A DNA stretch of 64,000 nt. Origin: Amoebophrya sp. A120. Its lineage: Eukaryota > Protista > Dinoflagellata. Location of the stretch: assembly GCA_905178155.1 (NCBI GenBank), contig CAJINV010000008.1:3398013-3462012 (forward strand). The letters run 5' to 3'. The notes under the pieces were generated by a model, which saw nothing but the letters and a program-made list of their open reading frames with translations, searched no databases and was not told the origin of the DNA. Numbering within the stretch: position 1 is the first letter of the stretch; every line of letters begins with the position of its first letter. Both the position numbers and the translations under genes were made by a program. This document shows positions 8,320-64,000 of this stretch, in pieces.

Positions 8320-11300
8320 ATGTCGTTTTTCGCAGCCTGCGCGCAGCGGGTTTGCGGGAAGGGAAAGCAGAACCGAACGGGCGACGGAATGACTTCCCAC
8401 GGGAAAAAAGCCGGGTTCTTCCAGACGTTGCGGGATGGCAAAAAGCTCCACGAGCGCATTTGCCTGAATGCGGTCCTGCGGCCATGGCGGACGCTGTTGC
8501 AGATCACGCTCACCTGCATCGTGCTGTACGTGCTAGCGCTGGTCACGAAGAACTATTACCCCACCGGGCTATGAGAGTGCACAACGCCCCCTCCCCCTCA
8601 TTTGTAATGCCAAATACCAAATCCACGTCTTGCCTTCGAGCACAGCTTGCATGACAAATTTTGAACCCTCAAACAGTACTATAATCCGTCTGCAGATTTG
8701 TCATGCGGATGTCACATTTCTGGCGTTGCTTGTGTTGCTGCTCATGCCATTCATATGAGGGGGAGGGGGAGTTGTGCACTGTCATGCGGGTCCGTCGAGG
8801 TGGAAAAAAACGTCAACATTTGGCGGCCGAAGTCGCACAAGCTGATGCAGGACCAGCATGCGTTCGAGGCGGTGACGGCCTGGACGCCTTTGTGGAAGGA
8901 GGCAAGCGAGGAGTTCGAAACCGACGCGGAGCGGCACCGTCGCTTGGCCGCCGCTTTTCCCGCCGTCAATCCCGAAGTGCAAACCGCCCTGCACGGCCCC
9001 GCGCCGTCCGCAGCGAGTCAGAATTTCGGCGGCAACGCGCAAATCGTGTACAAGACCAAGGGTGGCAATTATCAAAATGAAAAGCTGGCGCAAGTCACGT
9101 TCTGAAGTACAAAGAATCTGCTGTTTTGGAACGTTTTCAAAAAGCGACTTGCTGTTTTACATGAAAGACCTGCGGGCCTTCTTATCGCTAAAATGGAACG
9201 GAGGCTGTGAAACAAGCATCTCCACTTCCGCAGCAAATGCTCCGGCTGCAGTGCAGCTAGGGTAGGTCTTCGCAACGCAAATTGTTGCTCTACTTCTGCG
9301 TCGAAAATTTGTGCTATAGTGGTACGAAAAATGTGTGGCACTTGAGTCCTCCTTGTGCTCCCAAGCTCTGGCGTACTTAATATGTGCGCTTTCTTTCATT
9401 TCGATACCAACTCTAACGTGTTTACAAGGGGGAATTTGTACGCCATGTGCCGGTTGGAGCAGCTGTGGTACACGTGGAACGATTTCGATGACGGTGCCAG
9501 TGGGAAGGACCGCTTCCTCCAGTCACACACGCGGCTGTCGAACCTGCTGGTGCAAAGTTTCGTCAGTCCGGGGAAAACGCTCAGCCAAAACGACCCCAAC
9601 GCCTTTCCCGCGTCCGATTGCGACTTGATCTTGGCGAAGTCGCAGGCGGAAGTTGACGTGGCGGTGAAAGAACGAATCTTCGACCTATCCGGGCGCAGAA
9701 GTCAGAAGTCCTCTTCTTTTCAGTGCGATCTCGTCCGTCGACTGCTGATGATTGAATGAAAGCGCCATGGTGAGCAGCAACTGCACCGGCAGCGACAGCG
9801 CTGCAACACAAGCTTGCAGAGGGCAACTTATCTTTTTTCTACGAACAACTGCAAAGTTGTAGTCCTATCGAACGATAGGGAGGTGCATCGACGTCATCTG
9901 GAGTTTATCATGCAAGATTGTGCGTAAAATGGATATGGAACTTTTCGTTTTGGGCGGCGTTATTTTTTGCTTGAGACATTTATCTTGTAAGTGAACGTGA
10001 ACCAATGATTGTCAGAGAGGGACTCGTCCTGCTTCTGCCCTTCCATACGACCGGTACGAGGTAGACAACCAGGCGCAGTTTGGGTTTTTCCTGGACAAGA
10101 ACTTCAGTGCCATGACCACCACGCCGAAATTCACGTCGTTGACCCGTTCGGGGTTCCAGGAGCTGTCCGGCGATTTTGCGAAAGCCGAGGACGCGCTGAA
10201 AAGCCTGCAAGCGTTTTTGAACGTCGAGTCGTCCTTTTTCCAACCCTTGTTCGTCGTGGACGACAAGGAGCACAAGTTTGTCCCCATGCCGCAATTTGCG
10301 CAGGCCGCGAACAACCTGGAGGTGCGCATCTTCGATCCGGCGCTGGCCAACGCGGCGGGCCGCATGCTGAACCTCGGCCGCGACCTGGGCGTCGGACTGC
10401 CGATCACGTTTCTGATCGTGTGGGCGATCATTTTCTCCTTCACCAACCACAGCAAGTTCTGCGCCTCGTTCGTGCTCGTCTTCGTGTTTCTCTCCATGCT
10501 CTCCGGCTACACGGGCTACTACCTGCTTGCGCGGCTGGCCTATATGGAGCCCTTCATGTCGCTCACCCTGTTTCTCATGCTCGCGGTGGGCGCCGACGAC
10601 TTCTTCGTGATCTGGGAGGCGGTGCGGCTGGAGCGGGCGCAGGCGCGACAAGACGCCAAGGAAATCCTGCCGCAGATCGAGGTGCTGACCGCGATGCTGG
10701 AAAATTATGAGCTCCCGGTCACCGCGATCAAGTTGCCCCAGGAGTTGGTGCTGCGGCAGAGGGATAAAATGAAGCTGACGCGCCAGATGTTGAGCGGTGA
10801 GGTACAAGTGAAAGATTCTTCTTCGGCGGCAGGCGTTTCGGACGGTCTTTCTTCTCCTGTTAGCATCGATAGTACAAGAACTGCCGAAAGCAGGCAGATC
10901 GAAATTTACCTGGCTTTGTACCGGGGATCGCAGCGCGCCGCGGCCAGCATGATGGAGACCAGTTTGACGACGGCCTTGGCGTTTTTTTCCATGGCGAGCT
11001 CCAACGTGCCCCCCATCGCCAGTTTCGGCATGTTCGCGGCCTTCATGATTCTCGGCAGCTACGTGCTCGCGGTGCTGTGCTTCCCCTCGGTATCGTGAGT
11101 AAAAACGTCCCCACACCAGAGTTGTAATGCAAATCTGCATGCTGAAAATGTTTCTCATGCGGAGACCCATGAGAAGCAGTCTCTAGTCGTGTTGTGGGAT
11201 TTGTGATGCTAGAATCAGCATGATATGCTAGATCTGTGATGCTGCTGAACAAGCTAAACAGGATTACACTGCGAGGCCAAACTTGTCATGCGCAGCAGCA

Positions 11301-28688: not shown

Positions 28689-31600
28689 ATGGCTCCGTCG
28701 GCGCTGCAGCAGAGCCAGCCGTCGAAGAAGAACGGGAACAAAAAGGCCAAAAACGATGACAACAAGGAGAATGAGGACCCGGGCGTGGCGAACGTCAAGG
28801 GGGCCCCGGCGAAAAACCCCCCGACCGGGGTCGAGAAGCTCTTCGGCGAGATCTTTGTGGAGACCAGCTCGGGCGACATCGGGTTGCAGGTGAAGGACGG
28901 CCCCCTGCTGCGCTGCCACACAGTGGCGCTGGGTCGGGTCCCCGGGTTTCTCTCGCAGTTGCGGACGAAGCTGAAACCCCTTCCCCTGTACATCGAGAAG
29001 CAACCCTTGAACACCATGAACTGGCTCAAGAGAAAAGGGTTGAAACGGATCGCGGAGCAGATCCAGTTCGCGTCTTTCGCCGAAGATCGGTACACGGAGG
29101 GGACCGACGTGGTCACCAAAGGCGGCTGGACCACGTGCGACACCATGAGTGGCACCAGGTGCGGGTTCCAGAGGAAAGACCCGCTGCGGTTGGCAGAACG
29201 ATACGAGCTGTCCGAAGACGTCGAGCGGGCCGTGGAACTGCTCAGATTTGTGTACTTTGTTTTACTGTTACTAAGTTTGTTGAGAATTATCATCTTCGTC
29301 GAAGTGGCTTCCGGTACGACCATCCAAGAACTACTTACAGAACGTAGATACAAGTTTTGTACCGGGTCTGAAACTTTTTGCTGATCTTATATATCCGGTT
29401 CTAACGTGCCCGTGCGTGGTACTGATACTTCGTCGGACATTTTTTGTCACAGATACCTGGACCAGATCGAATTTATGTCGATGAAGCCGGACACGGAGGA
29501 GGCCAAGAAGAAACTTTTGAACCAGATGGTCGACATGCTCTTTCTCGCAAACCGTTTTGCCGTAGACCAACTGTTCGCCCGGTTAATGCGCTGGTTTCCC
29601 GCGCACTGTCGAGCGGTCTGTGGCGACGCCGCTTTCTGCGACGCGTACTACAAAATACAGTACTACTGGCAATACTCCGTGGAGGTATAATCTTTTGAGC
29701 AACCAATCTTCGTTTTTTTTTTCATTTTGAAATGCGAAGTTCGTCATTGTATGCGAAGGAATATCATTTTGCATGGAAGTTCTATCATCGCGACACTGAA
29801 AATCTCGCGTAGCTCTCCTGTGGCGCTTCTGCGAGGAGGAAAGGTGGATAAAAGTACTCAAAAAAAAATCGAATCCTAAATCCTACCATAGGAACCGCTG
29901 TTCCGCAATCTGATGAAGCAAACGCTGGTTGGCATGGGCTGCGTGCGCATGAACTTCCAGCTGCTTTCCTGGGACGACCGCTGGACGAGTTTGCCCTACA
30001 CGTTTCTCCAGCTCATTCTCGACCACGACGACTTGGCCATCACCTCGGAAGCGGAGCTGCTCGTGCTGATAGAAAGGTGGAATGTATCCAAGACAAAAAA
30101 CTGTGTTAGTGTAACTATCTGTGGCTGACAGCATCACAAATTTGCTCTACGTGACTGAGTAAACCTGTCATGCGTGGCTTGAAGGGGAAAACACACGCGA
30201 AAAGAGGGCGCTATGGTTGTCTGGCATGACAGGCGTAACTCTGTTGCATCTTCTGCATTACAAAGTTACACTTACACAGTTTTTTTCTTGCATAGAACGC
30301 CAACCGGGACAAGGACCCGGAGGAGATTTACGAAATCTGCTGCTGCTATGGAACTGTCAGGATCGAGATTGACAAAATCGAAAAATTTGTGATGCGTAAA
30401 ATGTATGACGCGCAATACGTGTGTTGCAGAGCAGGCAAGTGAGGCCGATTGTAAGCCTGTTTGGGGTTATAGCTCGAGCTGCTAAAGCAGCGTGAGAGAA
30501 TCAGTCTTCTTTGCCTAAACAGCATTGCAAACTGGATTTAGGCACCGCCAGAATTTGTCACGCGCAACTTAGAAACTGGGTTCGAACTGGAATCCATTTT
30601 ATGCATGACAAATCATTTCGATTTTGTCAATTTCGACTCTGACACTTCCATAGCTGCTACCGCCAGACGCCCGAGAACGTGGAGGCGCTGGTGTTTTTCC
30701 TTTCCAACCTGGGCATGCTCGAGCAGAGTACCGCGACGGCGAAAAAGGAGAAAAAAGTGGACGAGTCCGCGTTCAGCAACAAGGAGGACGCCATAAAGGC
30801 GGGCCAGTTGGCGAAACTCTTCGCGGTATTGCCCAGGAGAAACACCAAGCCAAGAAGGGGCAAAACGGAAAAGAAAAAGAAAAGTACGTTGTACTATACG
30901 ACTACGAGGCTTGGTTTCGTAAGTCTAAATTAAACTAAGGCATGATCATGCTGTTTTCGATAGTGTGTCAATCATGAAAGATGCCGACCTCTGCGTCTTG
31001 GTGGACGCGACAGGATATTTGAAATTGTCATTTTTGAGAAGAAGTTCAACTGCAGCCCCGTAATTTTTGGAAAATATACAAAAAACTTAAAACAACAAAG
31101 TCTTGTTTCCCCATTACTTCCAAACAGAGCAAGAATCCGGGCCGAAGGACGCAGTGGCAGAGGGTACCGCGGCCGCCACGGGGGATCAGGACGACGACGC
31201 ACCGGAACCAGTGGCGGACGATTTGGCGGGGGCATTTGCCGCGGTGGAGCAGATATGCATTTCAAATGTTTTGTCCGTGTCATTTGGAAAGTTGTGATGC
31301 TAACTTGAGCATTCGGTAACTCGACGGCAGTAGGCAGAGTGAAAAGCATGACGAAGAAGTTGAGCATGGGTGTGCTCTGTCCATGACCTCTACTACTGCC
31401 GCAAGATGTATTGCAGAGGTTGCAGTCAACATCGCATTTGCGCACTGCAAGGCTTGCGATCATCTTCCAGAGGACCCGGATGGATTTGCAGTGGATCACG
31501 GAGTAACCAGGTCGTCGAAGTGGAAGTAGAGGACGAAGACCTCGGTACGGAATTCGCGTTTTTTGTCATGCGGAAACGTGTGTGAAGGGGTGAAAAATGG

Positions 31601-32566
31601 TATCGATCCTATATTTCGACCATATTTTTTCATATACATATTGCAATTTCTGTTGTGCTAAAGTGAAAAACTTCACACATCAGACGCGTTTATGGTGGTG
31701 AAGAAAGACCAAGAAACCGGGCATTTTTTCGGCGGCCAGACAGGGCTGGGTTTCACGGTGGTTGCGGGAGAAACCATGACACAGCTGTGCGCCATTCGCG
31801 ACCCGGGTCAATACAGAATACGAGTGGTAGAAAAATTCGCAGACGTCTTGATGTAGCCCTAGTATTGCTGCACGGCATGATCGTGCTTTTTTGTAGTCGG
31901 GCGTCATGCGCCGTTGCATCCTCGTTGTGCAACAAAGACTCCTACTAGTACAAATTTCCTCCTACTTGCTTCTCTCCTCGACTACTCAAAAAAAAAACCT
32001 CTTTTCATCACAGGCAATGTCGCAGAAGTTAGCGCAATTGTGGCTGAGCAACCACACGTGCTTCGTCGGCGTCGTCTACAACGAGCACTGCTTCTGCGGC
32101 TATCAGGTGCAAGCGTCCGACTTCCTGGGGATTTACGAACTTCGCTGCATGACGAGCGTGTCCGCGAAGCCGGAAAAGCCGGTTTTTCTCACCGGGTCGG
32201 GAACCAAAGTGGATTTCGACCTGGACTTGACGGTGGACATGAAGTTGGTCAACGGAGTCATCGGCTGCAAGTTTCAAATCATGGCCAACAGCGTCAGCCT
32301 CACCATGGACGAAATACAGGTAAGAGAGGCACTTTTTGCTTCATCTCCTGAAAGTAAAACTGTACAAGTACTAGGACGTTTAGCATCATGACGTAGGCGG
32401 TTTTTTTTGGTCTTCACAATCCAAATTGCAAAATGACAAGGTTTCCAACAAGTGCATGCAAGACGGCGGGTTGCGGTTCCAGATCGTGCCCATGGGACTC
32501 GATCACAAGGAGCAGATGGACATCCGAATCACGTGGATCATGGGGAACGGAAACCTCCGGAAATAA
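28689..32566 (+). CDS. BTB/POZ-BACK domain protein
   Basis: Exons ~28689-29247, 29455-29684, 29892-30084, 30300-30346, 30658-30883, 31128-~31253, ~31437-31544, 31684-31826, 32014-32319, 32441-32566. BTB-like GDIGLQVKDGPLLRCHTVAL...MLFLANRFAVDQL; BACK-like WTSLPYTFLQLILDHDDLAITSEAELLVLIERW. One intron border and one apparent frameshift are unresolved. Confidence 0.7.
29686..29890. mobile_element. Probable aged introner, now GT-AG intron 29685-29891
   Basis: G|TAT...ATA|G, TSD GGAGG/GGAAC (3/5), TIR largely lost. Confidence 0.45.
30085..30294. mobile_element. Introner family B (210 bp)
   Basis: TSD GAATG/GAACG, ~31-bp TIR TATCCAAGACAAAAAACTGTGTTAGTGTAACT. It is a reverse-complement homolog of 40235-40432. 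Confidence 0.95.
30347..30652. mobile_element. Introner with long (~57 bp) imperfect TIR
   Basis: TSD GCTGC. TATGGAACTGTCAGGATCGAGATTGACAAAATCGAAA...TTTCGATTTTGTCAATTTCGACTCTGACACTTCCATA. Removal gives EICCCYRQTPEN. Confidence 0.92.
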
Positions 32567-33635
32567 GGACTACAACCCTTGCACAATGGAGGATCCGAGC
32601 CTACGTCTTGCGGAAACTTTTGAGACGCAAAAAGAACTCACGGAACCTTCGTCGCTGTCTACAATATCGAGCTAAATTAAAAATGGGCGTTGACTGTCGA
32701 ATTCGAAATTAATCTTGTATCTTTCCATCATCATCATCCTTAAGCTGCTTAACGTCTAAACATCAATTAAAAATAGCAATTATTCTCCTTGGCCGCCAGA
32801 GGAGGAAGGTAAGGGTGGCAATAGATTTACGTTCGGTCTTTACACCCAGAACTTTTGCACCAGCTCAATGTATTTCATACGAGTACAATGTCTTGGTCGA
32901 CGTAACAATAGATACACCTTGATACCGAAATGTACCAATTCAGTAGATAAACCAATGCTATTGATTCGGCGCTCGACGATCGAACTTTGCAACTGTAAAA
33001 AACGTAGCTCTAACTCCGAAATTGACAGAATGGACGCACTTTTCCAAGTGTGGGCTGAGTACTGGCCCGAGGTCCGTTGTTTCCCCTTTGTAAAAATTGT
33101 TTCGCAGGAGCACTGCCCTCACGGAATTTGTAATTCTCAGAACAATTATTGTCTCGCCTGATGCTGCTGAGTTTCACCGGCACGCAACGCTCTGTGTAAA
33201 TTTTGACGCGGCAGACTCAGAACTTTTGTAAGAACTAGAAACAAAATGAAAATCAAAAGATGTGACATGACAGGTGTTGCTTCGTTTCGTGCTTCAGCAG
33301 ACATGGAAAAAGCGCTTCCGACGTACATTACAGTGTTCAACAGGACCACATCGCAGGAGCTACAGCTAGCCGCTGTAGCTAATGAAGCATAGTCTGGTAC
33401 TGCTGTTGCATAGTTTGGTGTAAAGTTGGGACAGCACCGCTGGAACTACACATACTTAACGCGGCAGCAGCAGATGCTGCGCACCAGATCTTCGTCGCGA
33501 CAAATAACTTTTGCGAAGAATGTAGGCGGCGTTTAAGAGGACCCAGTGCCAGTCCCCAGAAGAAAAAACACTATTATATCCTCACCCACGCTATTGATTT
33601 ATTCAGCTGTACAGGAGAAAAAATTGGACAATAAG

Positions 33636-36600
33636 ATGACGTTTTTCACACGACTCCTCGGTCGGTTTCTCCCGACCTGGTTGCTCGGCATGAACGGCAA
33701 AACCGTCACAAACCTCGACCGCTTTCTCTCCTACCTGGGGCTGGTGTACTTCTGGGCGTTCGCGGGGTACTATTTACAGGTCCGGGCGCTCTACGGCTTA
33801 AATGGTCTCATGCCGGTGGCGGACATGAAAAAAGCAGGCGGCGGCGCACAGTCGCCCTATGCGCCCTTGCCCTACCTGAGCAGCGCACTGTACGCTATTT
33901 TTGGCGCAGGAACAAGTACATCGAGCACAAGCACCGATCACACCGTGCTGGAGGCGGTCAGTCTGTTGGGTATGGTGCTATCGCTGCTGCTGTGGCTCTT
34001 TCCGAGAACTTGGCTCCTGCGCTGCGGAACCACGTTTGCCTGTTGGCAGTGCTATCTCGCGCTGTACTCTGTAGGTATAGATGTTGGTGAAGAATTTTTG
34101 TGTCTATAGAGAGTCAATCTGTATCGCGTTGCTGACCTACAACTACTTGCTTCCTTGAAGCTTTCCCTACATACTCACAAGGACGAGACACGACGAGACG
34201 CAGAGCTGCTGTACAGGACTGTCATCATCAAAAACTAACCATGAATTTCCTATCAGGTCAGACGTTTCTCTCCTTCCAGTGGGACATTCTGTTGCTCGAA
34301 GTGGGTTTCTTGGCCAACCTGTACAATATCCTGAGTAAAAACGTACCCACGCCAGAGTTGTAATGCAGATTTGCAAAGACAGGAAGACTTGCAACGCGCA
34401 TCCCCATGAGAGCCATTTCCAATCGTGTTTTGGAATTTGTGATGCTGTGAACAGGATGAGCAGATGAATCTGTGATGCGGCTGCACTTGCTAACCTGCAC
34501 TACACTGCATAGTGCAACTTGTCATGCGTGACTTACAAAACTCCTAGGTTTGTGTTGCAAAATCCCCATCCTGACTCTGGTGTGGGTACGTTTTTACTCA
34601 GGATATACAACTTGTCCTCTTCGGTCTATTTCCACAACTGCGTCGATTGGCTCCTCCGCGCGCTTTTCGTGAAGCTAATGTTCATGACCGGCGTAGTGAA
34701 GCAGTCTTCCAACTGCCAAACCTGGAAGGATCTGACCGCCCTGGAGTACCACTACGTGTCCCAGTGCCTGCCCACGGAGATGGCCTGGTTTGCGCACCAG
34801 GTCCACCCCTTTGTGAACCGACTGGGCGTCGCGTTCATGTTCTCCATCCAGCTGGCGCCGGGGATCCTCCTGATTTACGTGCCCTACCTGCGGGACTACG
34901 TCGCCATGCTCCACGCGGTATTGCAGATCGGGATCTTCCTCACGGGGAACTACAACTGGTTTAACGTGTTAAGCGCAATTCTCCTCTGGCCCTGCCTCGG
35001 CAGCGGATCGACCGCATCTTCGGGGAGTGACTTGACTGGAGACGCGTCCAGTGGAATTGCATCACTCACAAGTTACGGCGGCGGGAGCAAAAGTAGTGGG
35101 AGCACAGGTGTTGGTCGTGACAAAGGCGCGATAGAAATGACGACTAATTATAAATCGACTAGCAAGAGCAAAGCAGGAGCGGGTGCGGAGAAGAGTAAAG
35201 CGGCCATGAAAGCGAGTCGGTTGGCGACGCCGACGAAATCTTCGTCGAGAAAAATCGACTTACTTGATGAAGCGGCTTTGGACCTCGACACTGGTTCTTC
35301 GATAAGTGGGAATGAAGTACAAAAAAACGCAACAACACCAGCAAATAAATCGAAGGACATCAAAAACTCGTCCGCCATGAGCAGTCATCTGAAGCTGAAA
35401 AAATCCTCCTCTTTGTCGTGTTTCCAGAAAACGAGGAAGCAAGTTTTCCTCCTGTTCGCGTGCCAACTGCCGCTCCTCGTGCTGATCTCGCTGTTCCTCA
35501 TCCTCCAGGGCACGGACTTCGGTGTTACAGAGGATTTATCTGACTTCGTGGCAGCGAAGATGGTGCAGCTTCCCGGCGAGGGGAAAATCCAGCAGTTGTT
35601 GCCGACCAGCTTTGGTGCTGGTGTTGCTCTTGTGCAAAGCCTCTTCAGCGCGGAAACGCTTGCGGTTGTGCTCGCGCGGTTCGAACTGATGAAGGATGCC
35701 GTTCTTTCCTCGGCTGCTGTCGTTTTCAGCGGTGAATATGAAGAACACCCAGGCACTTATTTGTTCGCTTTCGGTCGTGCGTTGGAAGGCTTAGATTTTT
35801 GGAAAATTTTCCACGGCGATTTTTTCACTATCAAGTCCACCATTACCGACGGCGGCGTCCGGCAGTACCTGCACTGGTACACGCAGTACGGGTTGGTCGC
35901 GGTGCAAATCGCGTTCTTCATTTCCGCCCTCCGGTACCTCTTCGCGGTTACCGCGGACCATGACGTCACGTGCTTCGACCTGTGGAGCGGAAAAGGGCAC
36001 AGCGCCCGAAAGAAATCCAAAGAACCCCCGAGCCTTGCGATCGAGGACGGCACGCCGCACTCGTCCGCGGTTGGAATGCTTACTACTTCGAACTCATCGT
36101 ACAAGAGCCACTTCAGCACCGCTCCGGACGGCTCGCCTAGCTCGACGTGGACGTCCATGCAGCGACAGAACCAGGGCGGGGCCGCTTCGCCGCCGACGAT
36201 TCTGTCGAAGACGAAGCGGATTTTCCTCTTTCTCCCCATCGCACTGGTCCGCCTAGCGGCTGCCTTCGTCGCGCTCAACCTCGGCATGATCCCCTGGGCG
36301 CACCTGGGCCCGACCAATTTTTTGCTGCAGAAGGAAGTCATGACGCACGTGTACTCCGAGCTCTTCAAGCACGACCAGTACTCAAGTTTATCTAACAGCT
36401 ACGGCCTGTTCCGCCGCATGACCGGCGTCGGCAGTCACGACCGATCGGCGAAGAAGGTGCCGAAGGTGAGCGGTTTGCTGGGAATGGTGACGGCAGGAGA
36501 TGATTCGAATTCTACGAAGATGAACAGTACGAGTGTAGAACTTTCCGTCGCACCAGCGAAAAATCCACCCACAGAGGAGGCGTTTTCTCTCCAATCCGGG

Positions 36601-37581
36601 TACGCGGGGCTGAGTTACACCCCGGTGCCGAAGGTCCCGGTGCTGATTTTCGAGGCGCAGCTGAAATCTACGGGGCGAAAAACAAAAACATCAGCGGATA
36701 TTACGACGAGCAGGGAGAAGTGGCACGAGATTCCCTTTCGGTACGCACCCACTTTTTTGAATAAAATGCCGGTGCGCACGGCGCCCTACCAGCCGCGGTT
36801 CGACTGGCAGCTCTGGTTTGCCGCGCTGGCGGACCAGTATGCCGGGCAGTCGTGGCTTGTGAGGATGCTGTGGCTGCTGATCACGGAGAAGGTGCAGCCT
36901 GCCGCTGGAACGACAGGGGTGGCGGGTTCTGGTGAAGAAGGATCAGAAACTTCTGCACCCCCGCTCTACTCGCCGACCACGGACGTGCGCGAACTCCTCG
37001 AGCTGGATACGAGCACGGATGTGGACTGGCGCACGGCGGAAATCAAAGCGGTTCGCGTGCAGCGGTACTTCTACGACTTTTCGCGCTACGAAAACCCGCC
37101 CTGGCACCCGAAGCAGCAGGGGAGCGGGAAAACGGGGAAAGGTCCTCGTGTGAAAAACAATAGCGACGGAGGAGAACTAAAGTCTTCCATCAACCCTACT
37201 TCTCAGTGGTGGACCCGCGAGTACGCCGGAAAATGGCTGGACACCGTGGACGCGACGACGCTGGCACCGCTGGCCAAGTCGCAAAAGTGGAAGTTGGCTG
37301 AGGACGCGGATACGAAGAGGAAGAAGAAAAAGCCGCTCCAGGGTCTGGAAAATTTTCTCTCGACCGTGCGGGAGTTCCTCGTGCAGAAACCCAAACAAAT
37401 GCTCAAGGGCTTCGTCCTGAAAGGCGGGGGAAAGGAGGGTAAGCAGGGTGCGGGGGCCGACAGTGAAGATGGATCACTCAGCAATATTGTCGACAGCGCC
37501 CGAGCGGTGCTGGCAAAGGTGGACGAGAATTTCCTCTTTCTAACCGTCCCGCCAGTGCTGCTGGCGATTCTGGTCGGGTGA
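33636..37581 (+). CDS. Lipase maturation factor (LMF1/LMF2 family)
   Basis: Exons 33636-34074, 34257-34326, 34611-37581. Motifs GQTFLSFQWDILLLEVGFL, KLMFMTGVVK, WKDLTALEYHYVSQCLPT, LTGNYNWFN, NSYGLFRRMTGVG, APYQPRFDWQLWFAAL, WWTR. Confidence 0.92.
34327..34605. mobile_element. Introner family A (279 bp)
   Basis: TSD TACAA, TIR TATCCTGAGTAAAAACGTACCCACGCCAGAGT. Homolog of 11091-11369 in the same orientation. Removal gives LANLYNLSS. Confidence 0.95.
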
Positions 37582-38577
37582 ATGTGAAGGAGTCCGCATC
37601 AAGGTAGATTTTTGGGGAGCTGCGGTTTTTGCACGATAAGTAGGGGAAGTAGAATTATCAATCTGATCCGAGACAATATTTTTTCATACTATCAGCCAGC
37701 ACTGGATGTGCGCAACGTTAAGACCGATCACTGTGCCGCGACAAAGTGCGCGATTTTTCTAAACCGCAAGAACGTTATCGTCAGTCGATGTCGCATTTTA
37801 CAATAATGAGGCTCTTGTAAAGCAGTAGCAGATTCGCACCGGCGTCCTCTGTGTTTCGTTTATGCTTGTTTGCCGATACGCGCCCAGAAGAGATGAGGAA
37901 TGGACGATGGATTTTTTCGTCGTGCTGGTTTCTTCTCGTGTTTCGACTCAAAAAACTCTCTCGAATTCGTTGCTGATTCGACGTTGTTCGATTTCTCAGC
38001 CTGCGGAAAACCTAGTTCATGCAGTTGCTTCTCGGTGCGAACAAAAAATATACATGACAAGAGAGACGGGAGAGAGATCGTTGCGTGCTTCCGGATGCAA
38101 GTGGTTCGAAAAAAGGACGAAACTATACTTCGCCAACCGAATTGTCGCATGGTGCGCCAAGAGTTGTGCGCACAGCACTTGCGCTTCATCACTTCATCAG
38201 TTTCGCCGCTTATGCCTTTCGTTTCTTCACTTGGTGGATCAGGCTTCACGAAATCGCCTTCTGACAAAAAAATCATGTAGGACAAGTGTGAGTGTCAGTT
38301 GAAAACACTTGTTGTTTCGTTCTTGGAGTATCTCCACTACCTCTTCACCCACGTATTGCTTTTTTCTGCCGTGTCACGATTTCTCAAACGGAGAAGCAAG
38401 TGGGCTTAGCGGCTGCTGGGAACAATGCAGCAACGCGTCTACCACTTTACCGGTCACCTCCCATAGCTGCACTTTGCGCGAGCACGACCAGAAGAACTGC
38501 TTGTTCTTATCCCAGAGACAAGGAAATAAGGTTCCCGACCAACAAGAGTTAATTTCTTCCGTCATCCAGCCTTGAAA

Positions 38578-41500
38578 ATGAACACACCGCCGTTCTACAA
38601 GCTGCACACCCGCACGGGCTATCAAATGTAAAAATGTCTGGGTCTGGAAACTTGTAATGCTAAAAATGAATGATAGACGCACTGCAACAAGCAGCTATGC
38701 ATGACAAATTTTTTGGCTGCCATGTCTTACGTATTCCGCATGGCAAACTGCGTTTTTGCATGACAGATAAGAGGACTTTTTCGTGCCTATGCAACACAGA
38801 TTCTCGAGTCATGCCAGACAAGCATGACAAACTTGCATTCTTCCAGACCCAGACATTTTTGCAATCCATACGGGCGGTGCGCCACCACCGGTGATAGACA
38901 AGCAGAACTACTTCCCGAGTTCCTCTTCTACGTCTTTAGCCGCACCAAACTTGGACACCGAGCCGGGAATCACAGGAACTTCTGAAGTAGAACAGACACC
39001 GCAGCCCATGGTTTCTACGAGTTTGATGCAACCGCCTAATTTACTAGCGCAGTGGGCGAAGCGCTCGCACTTAACTTGCTACCACCAGTACGACCACCAG
39101 GGGATCTGCCACCCCAGTAGGTGGATCCAGGGGACGAGCAACACCTCGGAGGATGCAGCCCTCAAGAAACAAACAGAGGGGGAATTCTGCAGCAACCATC
39201 CTCTGCCTCCTGACCGGTCGGGAGCAGCAGGTACTGATGGCTTCAGCTCCTCCACCGGGGAAAATAAAGTTTCAAACAACCCCGACGAGGACAACGACGA
39301 AGCTCTTGCCGGGGGTTCTGATGAACCGGAGGACGATGCCGTACTTATCGACCTCTACGACTACGGGCACAAGGCGAAGATCGGAATTTCCAAGAACAAG
39401 CGGGCCGAACAGCAGGACGCTTTTTTTATCTTCCAGGACGGCGAAGAGCACTACTTCGGCGTGATCGACGGCCACGGCCCGGAGGGCGGCTGGGTCGCCG
39501 CGGAGCTCCAGAACAAGGTGCCAGAGTTTTTGCGCAGTTGCGACGGGGACATGTTTCGGGCGTTTGAGGCGACGGAGGCGTATTTAGCGGAGGACAGCCG
39601 GAGCTACTGCAGCGGCGCCGCCATCGCCGTGGTGCACGTGAATCCGGAGGTTGGTGCTTCTATTTTGTTCTTGAGGCCAATATCGCAGAATGATTCAAGT
39701 CATGTTTTCCGTAGTACCATCATATCTGCACGTTGGATGTAGACCCTGAACGGCAAGGGTTAGGGTGACCAACTGAAATACGTAGTTTCTCTACACTTCA
39801 ACTCGCTCAACGATAGATGTAAACCGCATGACGATCAAAATTGACTGTTACGCAACATGAAGAAAAAAACAATATTCAGATCGTCGAGTGCTGGCACCTT
39901 GGGGACTGTCGAGTTTTGTTTATCAACTGTAAAAATGTCTGGGTCTGGATCTGGAAGAATTCATGTTTGTCATGCTTGTCTGGCATGACTCTTAAATCTG
40001 TCATGCACGTTACCCAAGAGCTCCGTTTTTCTGTGATGCAGAAGCGCAGTTTGTCGCGCGGAATAGGCAACACCGAGGAGCTCAGAAACTTGTCATGCTG
40101 GGCCAGCATTTGGAGCCTCATCATGAGACGCCACCCAGCATCACAAGTTTCCAGACCCAGACATTTTTACATTTGATATTGTTTGGCTCCCGTCCGTTGA
40201 CGGATGACCACTCCGTGCGGAACCTCAGCTTCCATATGCAAGAAAAAAACTGTGTAAGTGTAACTTTGTAATGCAGAAGATGCAACAGAGTTACACCTGT
40301 CATGCCAGACAACCATGGCGCCCTCTTTTTATGTGTTTTTTCCCTTACAAGCCACGCATGAAGTCATGTAGAGCAAATTTGTGATGCTGTCAGCCACAGA
40401 TAGTCACACTAACACAGTTTTTTTCTTGGATATTCCAGGAACGCATGTCACTGTCCACAAAAAGTATAATCGTGTGTTACTAATTCTTGGTAGTGAATTT
40501 CTTCGACTAGATATTTGGGCGGAATAGATCAAAAATAGATTGGCCGCCAAGCTACGAGCATAGCGCGGCGCCTGGAAAAGAGATTGCTCCGGCCCGCGAA
40601 AGTTGGCCCAAACACCACGGCACTCTCTTACCTGGGCTGTCAGGTTTTGGGGCCAGGTAACTAAGAGAGCAGCGCGGTGCTTGTGATGCGAAAACGTCTT
40701 GGCCCGGGAAGGTGGCCAGATAAGGAGGGTGATCTTGAAGCACAAGCAGCACGCTGTGCTCTTACCGGGGCCTCTAGGCTCTGAGGCCCGGTAAGAGCAT
40801 AGCGTGGCGCTTGGAAAAAAGACCGCATCGGCCCAAAAAAAATTCGTCCAAACACCACGGCACTCTCTTACCTGGGTTGCCGGGTTTTGGGGCCAGGTAA
40901 GAGAGCAGCGTGGTGTTTGGGATGCGAAAATGTCCTGGCCTGAAGAGCGGAGGTGGCCAGATGAAAGAGACACCCTTGAAGCACAAGGCCGCGCTGTGCT
41001 CTTACCTGGGCCTCCAGACTTTGAGGCCCGGTAAGAGCATAGCATGGCGCTTGGAAGGAAAAAGACCGCGTCGGCCCAAAAAAAGTTGGCCCAAACACCA
41101 CGGCACTCTTTTACCTGGCCTGCCAAGTTTTGGCGCCAGGTAAGAGCATAGCGTGGCGCTTGAAAGGAAAAAAGGCCCCGTTGGCCCAAAAAAAGTTGGC
41201 CCAAACACCAGGGCACTCTCTTACCTGGCGTTCCAAGTTTTGGGGCCAGGTAAGAGAGCAACGCTTTGTTTGGCTCCCGTCCATTGACGGATGACCACTC
41301 CGTGCGGAACCTCAGCTTCCAGGAACGCATGTCGCTGTCCACAAAAAGTATTGTCTGCTACTAGTGTAGTTTTTCCAGCATGTCGTGAAAGTGACATCTA
41401 CGTTTGTTAGGTGTGCGTGATTCAGATTCTCCAAGCTGCGTATTCTCGTTGGTTTATCCGTTTGTGAAGATGATGATTAGTAGAATTTTTTCTTTCCCAA

Positions 41501-42456
41501 AAACAATCCAGCCGGCGCCCGCTTTCTCTCCGGAAACACGCGCGTGACGCTCTCCGGCGCTCCGGGTTCGCTGGAGTTGATGAGGTGCTTTGGGGACCGC
41601 TGGGGCAAGGAGACCGGTCTGTTTTCCGCGATTCCGGACCACATCAGAGTAACGAGACCGGAAGCTCTGTCCGAGCAGGGAAACCACGACCAGAAGGTGT
41701 CGCCGGACATCCTGGTCGCCAGTGACGGTGTGTTCGGTGTACTGGACAACGTGGAGGTGTGTGAGGAGCTACAGCGCACCAAAGCCAGGTCGCAGGAAGA
41801 GGCTGCAGCGAGCGGGGGTAAGGGTTTTTCTTGTAGCTTCTCAACAAAAATGGTCGTGCATTGATCATGTCTACGTGATGTCACAGCTGGCGAATGAATT
41901 CTTGCGAGACAGAAAAAAGTAAGTTTTGACGTCGTCGTCCTCTAAGACAGCACATTGATAATTATCAACAGCCACCACGAATCCGGTCGAGGCGGTGATG
42001 CGGCGAGCCATCGAGCAGCGGTCGACAGACAACATCACTTGCGTTGGTATTTTTACCCGGAAGATAAGGAGGAGAGCAAGTAGCCGCCGAAAAGAGGCCG
42101 GTCTTGCTGGAACCTCAAATCGAAGCGACACCAACGTCGCATCAAACGCCACCGCAGCAGCAGCAGCACCACCACCACTGAACGTAGATCCAACTGGGGC
42201 CAGGACCACCGACAAAGATGAAAGTAACCGGAAAATGAATGATGGAGCTCGTCTTGGGGCGAGATCCTCCAACCCCGTTGCGCCAACGACGACGGAAGTA
42301 AGCGGAAATGGTTCCTCCTTGTTGCCCCCGAGGTCATTCGACTTTTCGGTCGGTGACCTTCGTGACAAACGACAGTCGCGGGAGGATGGCGCACGAACGC
42401 ATGCCACCGCCGCTTTTAGCGCAGCAGCGCTACGCGGCAGAGGGCTCCGGGCGTGA
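38578..42456 (+). CDS. Protein phosphatase 2C (PPM family)
   Basis: Exons ~38578-38619, 38876-39649, 39880-39920, 40184-40234, 40438-40463 (or the duplicate 41271-41347), 41512-41817, 41972-42456. Motifs KRAEQQDAF, FGVIDGHG, SGAAIAV, HLGDCR, LTDDH, LMRCFGD, LVASDGVFG, STDNITCV. Confidence 0.9.
38620..38870. mobile_element. Introner family C (251 bp)
   Basis: TSD CGGGC, TIR core AAAAATGTCTGGGTCTGGAA. Removal gives HTRTGGAPPPVIDK. Confidence 0.93.
39921..40178. mobile_element. Introner family C (258 bp), inverted relative to 38620-38870
   Basis: TSD TTGTT. Its 3' end is the reverse complement of the 5' end of the 38620 element, and the interiors align in antisense. Removal gives GDCRVLFGSRPLTDDH. 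Confidence 0.95.
40235..40432. mobile_element. Introner family B (198 bp), inverted relative to 30085-30294
   Basis: TSD TTCCA, TIR TATGCAAGAAAAAAACTGTGTAAGTGT. The empty site is visible near 41317-41321. Confidence 0.95.
40550..41273. repeat. Intronic tandem array of six hairpin units (~110-135 bp spacing)
   Basis: Each unit has CTCTTACC(T/G)GG...CC(A/C)GGTAAGAG inside longer imperfect stems (one copy carries a small insertion). Hairpins start near 40608, 40743, 40848, 40984, 41091 and 41201. Confidence 0.9.
41266..41351 (+). repeat. Introner-free duplicate of the PP2C exon segment 40179-40234 + 40438-40467
   Basis: Identical to the spliced segment apart from CCG>CCA and TCA>TCG, with a single TTCCA at the junction. 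Confidence 0.95.
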
Positions 42457-60000: not shown

Positions 60001-63000
60001 AACACAATGCGTCGAGTGGTGCCAGCAGCCGGCATAAAACTTCCGCGTCAAAGCTGGACCCGACCGTCGAGGTCTTGACTCCGAACACCGCAATCCCGAA
60101 GCTGTTCGGTGGGAAATGTGTCCGAATGCAGAAGAACAGAACTGTAAAACTTTTGCGCACAACCGTGAGTCAAGCGCCCGTCTTGGAGATGCCGACGACT
60201 AGCAGCGAAGATTTGTACACCGATTTCCTCTTGATCCGCAAACAGCCACGGCCGGCCACAGAGTACCAGAAAACGGTGGCTCTCGGTTCTACTGCAGCTT
60301 CAGCAGCAGGTGTTGTCGACGCCACATCGAATGCGGCAGGGGGCAGTGTAGTTTCGGGTGTTTCTATCGGAAGAAGCAAAGCATCTTCCTCCAGGTCGCC
60401 GATAAAGAAAACAGTGAGCGGAGACGGGGACCCAGACGCGGGGTTTGCAAAAAAGAAAATCGCGAAGACAAGCAGCAGTGCAGTTGTTTATCGCTCGCAC
60501 TTCAAACCTCTGTTCAAGGAAAAATATCTGCCAAAGACCACATCCTCAAACGCAGAACGGGCGCGCAAATCGGATCAGAAACAGGACGATGCGCGGCCCG
60601 GTGTTGACAGCGGCACACGCGGAATATCAAATACCGGGGCGAGCAGCAGTGCGGGTCGGAAGCAGCTACTGAATGAGAAAGCAAGCACCGGGCAAAACAA
60701 TGCAGGAAGTAGCAAACGGCCTCAGTCCGATCCGCTGCACGAGGACGACACTCTGGATGCGCGTGCGCTTTACGGGATTAAGGTACAGATCGAGAACTTG
60801 GCGCGTTACCACCGGAAGCTCTTTCTGCTTCCGCGAGTCGTCGCGGCAGAAGGTGCAGGTGGACAGGCAGGACCAGCCGCTTCGTCCTTCGACCCTCAGG
60901 AAGCGATGCCCGCTGTATCCGCCCCTACCCCGGAGGAGCAAGTGTGGCCCGAGTTTGTGGGCACGCCCGTGCGGTGTCCGCAGTCGTTTCGATCGGGCGT
61001 GATCTGCAAGGTCTTGGTGCGGAAAATACCAAACGCTACTGGTACAGCTGCGGCGGGGAGCGCGAGTGCTGCAGCTGGCGCGACGTCATCCTCGTCTCTA
61101 CTGCCCCCCGCGCAATTACCCGCGACAGATCATGCCGGAACTACAATTGCGCCGGTCGTGGCAGCATCTAGCGGCGCAGCTGCGGTTAATAGCGGCGCCG
61201 AAGCAGGTACTAGCAGTGCAACAGGAACAACAGCCAAAAAGGGTACTAGCGCGGCAGGGCCTCATGGGACTACAACTAGCGCTCCTAGTTCCTCCGCACC
61301 CGCCGCGACAACATCAACCACCAGAATCACCCCGACCGTCCGCCCCTGCATCCGCGTGCTCTTCGACACGGGCGAGGTGGAGGAGCTGGAGGCGATTGAC
61401 CTGTTGCAGACGGTTTCCTTCGAGGTGCTGACGCCGAAGAAGCGTTTCCTCCTCTCCGACAACCCAGACGCCCAGCGGTTTTTCAGCGAGGAGGCCGCCC
61501 GGTCCGCCTGGTGTTTCAAGTCTTCCTTTGCGGGCACCGCGGTGCACCAGGGGAAGCTCTGTCTCGTGCGCGTGGAGCCCCAACTGTTTTTGAACAAGCT
61601 GGACCGCCTCTTTCTGCAGCACGACACTGCGCTGGAACCGCTGCTGGGATCCGCGAGCAGCGCGGTGGCAACCACGCAACAGCAAATCGCTGCGGCGGAA
61701 GATCATGCAACCGGGCGGGGGAATAATGGAACCACCACTACGACAACCTCCTTAGTTTCGAACGCGACAAGCATTGTCCGGCCCACCGAGCTGAAACCAC
61801 AGTCCTTGCGTACCGCGGTAACGGAAAAGAAGATCGGCACGACGGCGAGCAGCGTGTCCGGCGGGAGCAGCTTCACGAAAAAGAACCGCAGGAGAAATCT
61901 GGTTGCGCAACACGCTGCTCGCCGGCGCATGAACAAGGGGCCCAACTACAAGCCTGACGGAGTTACAGAACAGGACGATAGTGGTTTGATTAAAAATGCA
62001 ACACCTGCCACAGCAGCGATCGCGGCAGACAGTCTGCTGAAACACCAGGTCAGCCAGGCGAGTCGCGCGTTGCGCGTGGCGCAGGCCATTTTGCGTTTGC
62101 TGCACGAGGCGCAGGAGTTGAAGGTGATTCCCCAGGTCTCGCAACTCGAAGAGAACAGCAAGGAACAGCTGCACAACCTCTGCGCCAACATGTTCAGCGA
62201 AGATAGTCTGTACTTCCTCGGCAGTGCCAAGGAGCCCCTCGCGGCCGTCAGCTTCGCCCTGACCATGCGGCCCGACTACCGTGGCGGCACGTCCTCCGCG
62301 GCGACCGCGCGGGCGCGCGGGGGCCCGTTGCTGGGGGCGATGATCACGTCGACGGACTACTTTTCGCAGTTGCTCGAGGAGTTGGAGCAGCGAAAAGGCG
62401 TCAACGCCGAGCAGAACTGCAGCTGGCAAGCCTGCATCGACGGGATTTTCGACCTCGTCCAGGAGCTCCGGATTCCCTTTCTGCTGCCCGCCTCCGCGCG
62501 CGGGGAAAATTTCGAGCAGAAGCTGCTGCGGGCGTTGCAGAGCATGGAATTGCTGGAGGATTTCTATTCGACGAATATGCAAAACCAAGGAGATCATCAT
62601 GATCCCGCTGAAATGATGAATCAGCTGCAGCCGGAGAGCATTTGGCGCCTGGTTCCGCCGGCGCGGTACTTGTTGGACAAACTGAACTCCTGTCCGTGGG
62701 CGCAGGCGACCGACTACGGAATCATCCTAGACCGGCCCGACCAGTGGACCTTTCTGATCAACTATCCCACGAAAAAAGTGTTACAGTGACACATTTGTAA
62801 TTCAATTCAGCAACACAAATTTCTCTGCATGAGAGAGAAAACTTGTAATGCATACAATCCTACGGGAAAACACCTATGAAACGAGGCTCCTATGCCGGCA
62901 TGACAGAGCTTGTCTGTCTTGCTTGGCCTGCAGCACAATGTGTAACTGTAACACTTTTTTCTTCCCATATCAACGCGGAAAGCAGTTTCTCCGAACTGCA

Positions 63001-64000
63001 GAAGAACTCCGGCGTCGCGAAAGCGCAGGCGATCGAGAAGTATCAGCGGGCGTCCCTCAGCCAGCAGGACGACCGCGCGTTGCTTCTGGCGCTCCTACCG
63101 GAGGGCGCGGCGACGGTAGAGCGGCGGAACGTGTACAAGTACTTCCAGGAGAGGAAGCAAGTCCAGGTGTTCCAGAACAAAAGCTACTCCGAAATTCTGG
63201 AAATCTACGCGCGACTGCGAAACTTTTCGAAACTGCAGAAGGAGGCGATGTTTCTGTACCACGAGGTGGTCTTCGAGGGGAAGAATTTGTCGATCACGAA
63301 GAAGATATCAAGTGTAAAAATGTCTGGGTCTGGAAGATTTCGACATTTGTCATGCACATTTTGCATGACTCCTGATGTCTGTGATGCATGCCCTAGCATC
63401 AGAAATTTTTTGAGGGCTTTCTGATGCGTATCCTGCATGACAAATGCCCTCTCCGTGTAGCACAAAATCGAATCCTCTTGCTAGTCATGCAACACAGATT
63501 TTCCTAGAATCCGAAGACAGCATCAGAAGTTGCATCCTTCCAGACCCAGACATTTTTACAATCCATAGAAGAGGCAGATGTACGAAGAGTCCGTCAACCA
63601 GTGGTTCTGGACCGGCATCTATTGTGGAGAAAAATCCTCCCTCCCCATATTAAAGAGGTATGTTTCAACATCTAAAAAATTTGTGATGCTGATTTGTGGC
63701 CACAAATCCTGTCTCTCTTGCAAGAAGGCAAATCCAAAAAATCCGCCGCTTAATGGAGACGATTTGTAATGCTGTTGCACCTACATGGCAGGCCTCTGCT
63801 ATGCTAAGCGCCTACAACAAAACACCCCTACGCAGGCTGAGGCTTTGCCTGTGGTGCCTCACTGCAAGACAGGGCTGATTTGTGTACACAAATCGAGCAA
63901 CAGAAGTTTCCGCTTCAATATGTGGAGGGGAGATTTTTCACTTTGATAGCATCTTGACGCAATTGCGGTATCACAAGTACTGGAGCCTGAACAGATTACG
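57003..64000 (+). CDS. Very large protein, probable divergent TFIID subunit TAF1; runs off the right edge
   Basis: Exons 57003-62762, 62975-63305, 63573-63619, 63954->64000. Acidic N-terminus, then segments resembling the TAF1 central (DUF3591) domain in the expected order: LHHPHARLSRGTFPHFL, LVEHLSATPMVMPVRGM, SQAPVL...TDFLLIR, SCPW. Identification is by recalled motif similarity only. Confidence 0.55.
62763..62969. mobile_element. Introner (207 bp)
   Basis: TSD TCAAC, ends TAT...ATA, TIR core GAAAAAAGTGTTACAGT(G/T)ACACATT. Removal gives WTFLINAESSF. Confidence 0.93.
63306..63567. mobile_element. Introner with family C TIRs (262 bp) and a diverged interior
   Basis: TSD GAAGA, TIR core TGTAAAAATGTCTGGGTCTGGAAG. 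Removal gives SITKKRQMYEES. Confidence 0.93.
63620..63948. mobile_element. Introner (329 bp)
   Basis: TSD GCATC, ends TAT...ATA, TIR core GAAAAATC..CCCTCC.CATATT. Removal gives WFWTGILTQLRYHK. Confidence 0.9.

What the first reader, a model, noticed from the sequence alone, without database searches (positions are those of the whole stretch)
30085..40432. The same introner families sit in both orientations within plus-strand genes
Seen: family B is present at 30085-30294 (BTB gene) and as its reverse complement at 40235-40432 (PP2C). Family C is at 38620-38870 and inverted at 39921-40178 in the same gene. Inference: insertion is DNA-based rather than by reverse splicing, which would keep orientation. 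Excision must rely on symmetric features (terminal stem and TSD) rather than a strand-specific branch point and pyrimidine tract.
Basis: partly seen in the sequence, partly recalled or inferred. Interest (0 to 1): 0.8.

Follow-up and report, generated by a model that had tools for sequence, protein, structure and literature searches.

The report
Orientation-blind transposon introns in Amoebophrya
These are the already published hairpin-ended transposon introns of the marine parasite Amoebophrya; they sit in predicted coding exons facing either way about equally often, so they were likely inserted as DNA and are likely cut out by reading their mirror-image ends, but the two reversed copies flagged here are skipped together as one larger block rather than shown to be removed one by one.

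Summary
Observation confirmed: B1/B2 (88.9% identity) and C1/C2 (74%) are inverted copies inside plus-strand genes of Amoebophrya sp. A120; they are the introner elements (IEs) of Farhat 2021 (TAT...ATA ends, 5-bp TSD). The chosen examples do not prove the claim: in 4 of 4 likely-RNA runs B1 and C1 are removed singly, but C2 and B2 vanish inside one 1350-nt skip to a duplicate exon that lacks B2. The general claim holds on other data: among 207 elements from a related assembly, orientation relative to the predicted host gene is 67:69, and in 49 of 55 cases with both flanks callable the flanks join in one strand and frame after removing element+5 nt (26 versus 23 by orientation). DNA insertion is well supported. 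The cut register is -1/+4 (B1 RNA joint plus an annotated protein), and B1's available GT-AG is ignored. The inference 'stem, not branch point or U tract' does not follow: the 30-nt inverted ends give both orientations nearly the same linear ends. Either-orientation introners are published for Polarella and Aureococcus; this scan has met the class and the -1/+4 register on other A120 DNA. New here: the unbiased ratio and the unexplained 1350-nt joint.

The parts
30085..30294 (+). B1: IE of family B in the BACK/BTB-type gene, 210 nt, TATC...CATA, TSD GAATG (30080-84) / GAACG (30295-99); removed as 215 nt although an in-frame GT-AG (212 nt) is available
   Evidence: RNA joint 30083>30299 in 4 of 4 runs; contig length check 467 = 232+192+43
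40235..40432 (-). B2: reversed copy of family B, 198 nt, TATG...GATA on the + strand, TSD TTCCA; lies in exon copy E2, inside the skipped block; own excision not seen
38620..38870 (+). C1: IE of family C in the first coding exon of the PP2C-like gene, 251 nt, TSD CGGGC; removed as 256 nt
   Evidence: RNA joint 38613>38870 in 4 of 4 runs
39921..40178 (-). C2: reversed copy of family C, 258 nt, TSD TTGTT; its upstream end is the 5' edge of the 1350-nt skip
40179..40467 (+). E2: first copy of an 86-nt duplicated stretch (TSD, exon, GTAT donor), split by B2; not the copy in the transcript contigs
40556..41256 (.). palindromic tandem array (periods 240 and 110) between the two exon copies; its unit shares TGTTTGG with the start of the second copy
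41266..41351 (+). E2': second copy of the 86-nt stretch without B2 (empty site, one TTCCA); differs from E2 at two synonymous sites (41283, 41334); used by the transcript contigs
   Evidence: DNA contig 41235-42600 without differences
39915..41264 (+). 1350-nt stretch missing from the transcript contigs as one joint (may slide by up to 7 nt); no GT-AG placement, no inverted repeat or ATA at its 3' edge
   Evidence: record lengths 37+83+31=151 show no letters between
30347..30652 (+). IE 'E', 306 nt, TSD GCTGC; removed as 311 nt
31254..31497 (+). decayed C-like IE 'F' (ends ATC, TSD GCAGA/ACGGA, terminal stem not predicted); still removed as 249 nt
34327..34605 (+). IE D2 in the LMF1 gene, 279 nt, TSD TACAA; removed as 284 nt; same orientation as D1 (11091-11369)
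8570..8786 (+). IE 'H', TSD CGGGC/CGGGT; the annotated protein keeps the downstream T, which fixes the register at -1/+4
63306..63567 (+). C3: IE with C-type ends but a separate interior subfamily; TSD GAAGA; frame restored on removal
62763..62969 (+). IE 'K', distant B relative, same orientation as B1; TSD TCAAC; frame restored on removal

Best explanation
These are the published Amoebophrya A120 introner elements: short non-coding elements with inverted ends and 5-bp target duplications that sit in predicted exons in both orientations about equally, were likely inserted as DNA by a transposase, and are likely removed from pre-mRNA by a relaxed spliceosome that reads the two mirror-image ends. 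Shown: the anatomy; removal of element+5 nt in transcript contigs for five elements; no need for GT or AG. Supported by one RNA joint plus one annotated protein: the cut falls 1 nt before TAT and 4 nt after ATA, so the intron starts N-U-A-U (canonical donors here start GUA in 8 of 9, GUAY in 6 of 9) and ends AUA-NNNN. Inferred: because the about 30 terminal bases read nearly the same in either orientation, all needed signals (donor-like NUAU, a U run, a fixed A as possible branch point, the closing stem) are offered twice, the interior is irrelevant, and orientation is nearly neutral. Inferred: the mobiliser is a DDE transposase or integrase-like enzyme supplied in trans. At the PP2C-like locus the reversed C2 gives the 5' edge of a larger skip to a duplicate exon; B2 is a passenger in the main transcript.
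For: Window protein 100% identical to one named Amoebophrya sp. A120; ends match the TAT+7+AAA motif of Farhat 2021 section 11. RNA joints of element+5 for B1, E, F, D2, C1 in 4 of 4 runs. B1 slides only 1 nt and keeps the upstream T; P0121 reads YYPTG-S-VEVEK, keeping the downstream fifth base at H: only -1/+4 fits both. Related assembly: orientation 67:69 of 136 strand-called among 201 family-assigned elements; C1/C2 family 12:14, C3 family 30:32, D 6:4; 49 of 55 with both flanks independently called agree in strand, and all 49 in frame, 26 vs 23 by orientation; retention would give a stop or frameshift in 48 of 49. Orientation classes equal in age proxies (nearest-relative score 0.798 vs 0.794, p=0.44; TSD mismatches 3 of 44 vs 5 of 44). 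At -1/+4, GT in 40 and AG in 15 of 141, near base composition. Same-family neighbours in a locus: 11 opposite, 9 same. Weak transcript polarity at end position 4 (C favoured at the 5' end, odds ratio 3.2, p=0.0025, post hoc) fits a strand-reading machine.
Against: No reversed copy was seen excised singly in RNA; the only two in the window lie in the 1350-nt skip, and all seven within-family comparisons in working exons of the window are concordant (B1/K, C1/G/F, D1/D2). The both-orientation evidence is frame prediction (mod 3 only) from a Markov model in another assembly without RNA; Pfam backed only 3 of 18 strand calls tested, all in one orientation class; 6 of 55 flank pairs disagreed in strand. 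The 1350-nt joint has no ATA, stem or AG at its 3' edge, so it breaks the rule. No lariat, branch point or spliceosome binding was tested; YTRAY is present in only 71 of 135 3' ends. U1 snRNA was not found in A120 and Farhat found no transposase there. The position-4 signal does not survive a 30-position scan (p=0.027 uncorrected). RNA data are contigs from 2 samples of 1 study, labelled RNA by guess.
Confidence: 0.62

Rival explanations
1. Orientation-blind DNA insertion as above, but removal is by a non-spliceosomal, structure-guided cut-and-join system (endonuclease plus ligase measuring from the terminal stem), as proposed for euglenid nonconventional introns, which leave as circles. This is.
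For: No GT/AG need; B1 ignores an in-frame GT-AG; closing stems are predicted equally in both orientations (B1 -71.3/-72.0, C2 -110.4/-115.8 kcal/mol); U1 not detected; euglenid precedent (PMC11282704 section 6).
Against: Decayed F is removed at the same register though its terminal stem is not predicted; the -1 register puts UA where canonical donors have it; nearly all spliceosomal proteins and U2, U4, U5, U6 are present in A120; slight 5'/3' polarity at position 4.
Confidence: 0.25
2. Orientation matters: one orientation is spliced poorly, and the PP2C exon duplication rescued a gene hit by two reversed insertions.
For: In the window both reversed copies lie in the bypassed block and the working copies are concordant within family; B/K family is 6:1 in the related assembly.
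Against: 67:69 overall, 14:12 in the very family of C1/C2, equal age and frame conservation in both classes; the B/K skew is toward the B2 orientation, the opposite of what this rival needs (6:3 with the window's B1 and K, p=0.51).
Confidence: 0.06
3. The non-canonical joints are reverse-transcriptase template switches at hairpins flanked by direct repeats, not splicing.
For: Strong hairpins plus 5-nt direct repeats are the known recipe for such artefacts (own knowledge); it remains a live reading for the 1350-nt joint, where a hairpin array ends at a 17-nt repeat.
Against: B1 and F join with only 1 and 2 shared bases; the BACK/BTB-type frame stays open for 667 codons only through these joints; 48 of 49 genes tested would be broken by retention.
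Confidence: 0.04
4. The elements spread by reverse splicing of excised intron RNA into transcripts followed by reverse transcription.
For: Farhat found no transposase in A120 and favoured copy-paste.
Against: Reverse splicing would keep one orientation and make no TSD (established expectation, own knowledge); found 67:69 and 173 of 207 perfect 5-bp TSDs.
Confidence: 0.03

Closest known systems
Introner elements (IEs) / non-canonical introns of Amoebophrya sp. A120 (Farhat et al. 2021, PMC7789003; read abstract, sections 10, 11, 12, 16, keyword passages, keyword search of the one supplement text)
   Same: Same organism, TAT-started inverted repeats with an A run, 3-5 nt direct repeats (5 bp in Fig. 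S19 legend), about 240 nt, non-GT-AG ends, many families.
   Different: The text searched does not report element orientation relative to genes (hits for 'orientation' shown concern gene order; 'antisense', 'strand', 'reverse complement' absent from the supplement text), leaves the splice position relative to the hairpin 'variable', and doubts transposase mobilisation. Figures could not be seen.
Polarella glacialis ILE classes 6, 8, 10, 2, 7, 3, 1 and Aureococcus IEs (Roy et al., bioRxiv 2020.10.14.339549; keyword passages read; Huff et al. 2016 known only through that text and from recall)
   Same: TIR/TSD DNA transposons that make introns in either orientation.
   Different: Those recruit GT/GC/GA and AG from the TSD or the element end, so insertion sites are constrained, and classes 6, 8 and 10 were biased to one orientation; here no dinucleotide is needed and the large families are unbiased.
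A120 introner family 38, TIR-flanked with LTR-like ORFs, Ginger-like (Gozashti et al. 2025, PMC12130899; keyword passages read)
   Same: Same genome; a candidate source of a mobilising enzyme.
   Different: No link to families B, C or D was tested; the elements here are non-coding. That paper's filter asks for matching 5'-to-5' orientation.
Fritillaria borealis non-canonical introns (via review PMC11282704 section 6; PMC13326754 listing, abstract start and two passages)
   Same: MITE-derived introns with TIR and TSD, removed by a changed spliceosome.
   Different: Preferred AG-AC/AG-AT ends; U1 kept and U2AF diverged; orientation not addressed in the passages seen.
Euglenid nonconventional introns (via review PMC11282704 section 6)
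   Same: Terminal stem, TSD-like repeats, non-canonical ends.
   Different: Released as circles after spliceosomal introns; excised form untested here.

Membership tests
Amoebophrya A120 IE | occurs in A120 | tested here: met
   window proteins 100% identical to entries named Amoebophrya sp. A120
Amoebophrya A120 IE | terminal inverted repeat starting TAT, seven variable bases, then an A run | tested here: met
Amoebophrya A120 IE | 3-5 nt direct repeat at the borders | tested here: met
   5 bp at all four named copies; perfect in 173 of 207 in the related assembly
Amoebophrya A120 IE | repeated in the genome | tested here: met
   families of 40 (C1/C2) and 14 (B/K) among 222 sequences; relatives at 84-93% identity
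Amoebophrya A120 IE | removed from transcripts as its own intron: B1, C1 | tested here: met
   joints in 4 of 4 runs
Amoebophrya A120 IE | removed from transcripts as its own intron: B2, C2 | tested here: inconclusive
   both lie inside one 1350-nt joint; contigs drop minor forms, so absence is not shown
MITE / non-autonomous TIR DNA transposon | TIR, fixed-length TSD, no coding capacity, either orientation | tested here: met
   (stops in all three + frames)
MITE / non-autonomous TIR DNA transposon | autonomous partner with the same ends | not testable with these tools
   no whole genome held
Huff/Roy-type introner (splice dinucleotides from TSD or element end) | GT/GC/GA donor and AG acceptor created at insertion | tested here: not met
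   GT 40 and AG 15 of 141 at the used register; B1 ends GT..AC and skips an AG
U2 spliceosomal intron | lariat with a branch adenosine; snRNP dependence | not testable with these tools
   no lariat or knock-down data; YTRAY in 71 of 135 3' ends is no test
euglenid-type nonconventional intron | released as a full-length circle | not testable with these tools
   only assembled contigs covered the locus

The most novel reading that the evidence does not exclude
Amoebophrya has a fully orientation-blind and dinucleotide-blind splicing code held in about 30 mirror-image terminal bases, which makes any insertion of these transposons into any exon site nearly silent; and the PP2C-like locus is a natural experiment in which the donor end of a reversed element is spliced across 1350 nt to a duplicate of its own downstream exon that has no inverted repeat, showing that the 3' site can be set by the exon or TSD sequence without the closing stem, with two mutually exclusive exons coding the same peptide.
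Probability: 0.3. Interest if true: 0.7.

Novelty: already known. Interest (0 to 1): 0.42.

Why it matters
How Amoebophrya removes tens of thousands of non-GT-AG introns without a detected U1 snRNA is a stated open question (Farhat 2021). An unbiased orientation ratio confines the splicing information to the mirrored ends and rules out interior, strand-specific signals and plain reverse splicing; with the -1/+4 register it tells where to look for lariat branch points (the 3' inverted repeat) and which few bases to mutate. It also explains the scale of the invasion: no site and no orientation is wasted. The PP2C-like locus gives a ready PCR target for asking whether the stem is needed.

Tried and rejected
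No whole genome is held, so no A120-wide count was possible; a related assembly found by pattern scan stood in (153 of about 590 estimated stretches, 80 with long flanks; whether it is the same strain was not determined). My interim reading from the window alone, that working copies share one orientation, was rejected. No RNA holder was listed as on record; X1-X4 are RNA by guess, backed by skipped GT-AG introns. Raw RNA runs X9 and X10 (same species label) had 80 and 2 reads, nearly all on element ends, and said nothing. Laying DNA run X5 flooded the joint table with copies from other loci and did not show whether exon copy E2 is present in that sample; its summed depths are not copy numbers. 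The viral scan gave 2 single matches with no element. Pfam on 36 flank pieces gave clear hits for 3 loci and low-grade hits for 2. The first protein search for the H exon found nothing at near lengths; 'longer' found P0121. The intron after E2 is not alignable to the intron after E2' (score 16.5 vs shuffle mean 18.9), so a plain tandem duplication was rejected. Folding the 1350-nt block gave no stem that closes at its 3' edge. Cross-family orientation from weak similarities (z 4-6) was judged unreliable and not used. Paper searches for prior reports of orientation in Amoebophrya: and keyword reads 13, 15, 47, 50, 51, 53, 65 found none; Roy 2023 (journal version), Huff 2016 and Henriet 2019 were not read, and figures were not visible.
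Full report
1. Observation. Each begins TAT, ends ATA, has about 30-nt inverted ends and a 5-bp flanking repeat. The window holds 15 such elements that I worked with; 11 passed a strict end-complementarity cut against 0-1 in 20 shuffles. A window exon is 100% identical to a protein named Amoebophrya sp. A120, and the ends fit the A120 IE motif in Farhat 2021.

2. Transcripts. Four runs of contigs that the tool guesses are RNA (2 samples, 1 study) skip seven GT-AG introns in 29860-41760 and five elements as length+5: B1 215, E 311, F 249, D2 284, C1 256, each in 4 of 4 runs. Record coordinates show no extra letters at B1/E (467 = 232+192+43), D2 (67) or the long joint (151 = 37+83+31). B1 has a GT one base before it and an AG one base after it that would give an in-frame 212-nt intron; the contigs show 215. 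The BACK/BTB-type frame runs 667 codons through these joints.

3. The named reversed copies are not shown to be spliced singly. The PP2C-like contigs jump 39914>41265 (1350 nt, may slide 7) and then 41347>41512. The skipped block is C2, an exon copy E2 split by B2, about 80 nt of unrelated sequence and a palindromic array. The landing site E2' repeats 86 nt of E2 without B2, differs at two synonymous sites, and both routes would give the same protein; the contigs carry the E2' letters. E2' also serves as an empty site: one TTCCA where B2 has two. A DNA contig confirms the array-E2' junction. The long joint has no GT-AG placement and no ATA or stem at its 3' edge. Readings, my odds by inference: real splicing to the distal copy, direct or after C2 removal (0.5); an allele lacking the 1087-nt block in the RNA cultures or an assembly difference, in which case reversed C2 is simply excised normally (0.3); template switch at the array hairpin or other artefact (0.2). 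In all of them C2's upstream end is the 5' edge, which is partial support for a reversed end acting as donor. B2 has no RNA support; contigs drop minor forms, so this is not proof of failure.

4. Orientation count. From the window alone the picture favoured one orientation in working exons (B1/K, C1/G/F, D1/D2 concordant). A scan with the C-end motif returned 153 loci, 144 from one public assembly series; 119 loci gave 207 distinct elements, none from the 11 other loci including 2 viral ones. The scan required TAT/ATA ends and allowed 2 TSD mismatches; 173 were perfect, 26 had one, 8 two. Families oriented without conflict. Host strand came from a 3-periodic Markov model trained on 8032 window codons: right in 13 of 13 window elements, and on 325 held-out samples right in 278 overall and in 143 of 143 at the margin used. 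At that margin 136 of 201 family-assigned elements were called: 67:69; C3 family 30:32, C1/C2 family 12 C1-type:14 C2-type, D 6:4, B/K 1 B1-type:6 B2-type. Scoring the two flanks independently, 55 of 201 were callable on both sides; 49 agreed in strand and all 49 in frame under removal of element+5 (26 and 23 by orientation; one third expected), 6 disagreed in strand. Retention would break 48 of the 49. The two classes are equally diverged. Neighbouring same-family pairs were opposite in 11 and parallel in 9 cases; L080 has a C1/C2-family pair in opposite orientation 172 nt apart. Limits: prediction only, frame known mod 3, no RNA for that assembly, sample enriched for C-type ends, Pfam backing for 3 of 18 loci tested, all one class.

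5. Register and signals. B1's mismatched TSD allows only -1/+4 or 0/+5. At H (CGGGC/CGGGT) the annotated A120 protein P0121 reads Ser, not Pro, so the downstream fifth base is kept; this is a gene model, not raw reads. Together: -1/+4. Earlier notes of this scan reached the same register on other A120 DNA (unchecked AI notes, not counted as evidence). At that register first dinucleotides are AT 43, GT 40, CT 34, TT 24 and AG ends 15 of 141. The intron thus starts NUAU, like the GUA(Y) of canonical donors here (8 and 6 of 9), and ends U5-N7-AUA-N4. The 5' and reverse-read 3' profiles are almost the same over 34 positions; the one hint of polarity is position 4 (C favoured at 5', odds ratio 3.2, p=0.0025 post hoc; p=0.027 in an uncorrected 30-position scan).

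6. Mechanism. Insertion as DNA is well supported (TIR, fixed TSD, 1:1). A mobiliser was not found; Gozashti 2025 describes TIR-flanked A120 elements with integrase-like frames, a lead only. For removal I favour a relaxed U2/U6 spliceosome reading the end motifs, helped by the stem (0.62), over a stem-measuring nuclease-ligase (0.25). What the ratio does exclude is a needed signal in the interior.

7. Prior knowledge. The class is Farhat's IE. Either-orientation introners are described for Polarella and Aureococcus, there with canonical-type splice sites and, for classes 6, 8, 10, an orientation bias. I found no statement on orientation for Amoebophrya IEs in the texts searched; three key papers were not read and figures in the supplement were not visible and may bear on this.

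8. Verdict. Real, known class; first reading partly right, with the wrong exhibits. Added value: an unbiased orientation count, an independent register check, and one unexplained RNA joint. Interest 0.42.

Noticed in passing
window 39915-41351: 86-nt exon duplication starting exactly at C2's right TSD, a 798-nt insert between the copies, and TGTTTGG shared between the array unit and the second copy; looks like a long target duplication or template-switch repair. Both differences between the copies are synonymous.
   Followed up: partly
window 6159-6445, 9686-10047, 11091-11369, 54531-54835, 63620-63948: Further TAT...ATA elements with 5-bp TSDs; removal of element+5 restores + strand frames (63620 needs 63306 removed too); G at 6159 has almost no stem left.
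   Followed up: partly
window 26061-26212: Likely decayed element, TATG start, ends ACA, flanked by CCGGA on both sides.
   Followed up: no
window 4728-5056: Interruption of the first + strand gene that begins TAC with an A run like family J and ends at an AG; possibly a decayed element now using a canonical acceptor.
   Followed up: no
window 2397-3320: GC-rich tandem array with A runs between a - strand gene end and the first + strand gene.
   Followed up: no
window 31224-31530 and 30854-31157: Low-depth contigs keep F (run X2) and a canonical intron (run X4) unspliced; presence only.
   Followed up: no
all elements, interiors: Short motifs such as TTGTGATGC, TTGTAATGC and TGTCATGC recur on both strands across unrelated families; possible transposase-binding subterminal repeats.
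   Followed up: no
canonical introns of window 29252-41511: Acceptor regions are A-rich with weak U tracts and no constant branch motif.
   Followed up: no
window 40149-40179, run X9: About 70 raw RNA reads match only the C right end with one foreign flank, so a related organism in that run carries a C-type end unspliced at one locus.
   Followed up: no
L001 1160-2055, L018 936-2684, L002 255-2363: Very dense loci with 3-6 elements separated by exon pieces of 30-70 nt.
   Followed up: partly
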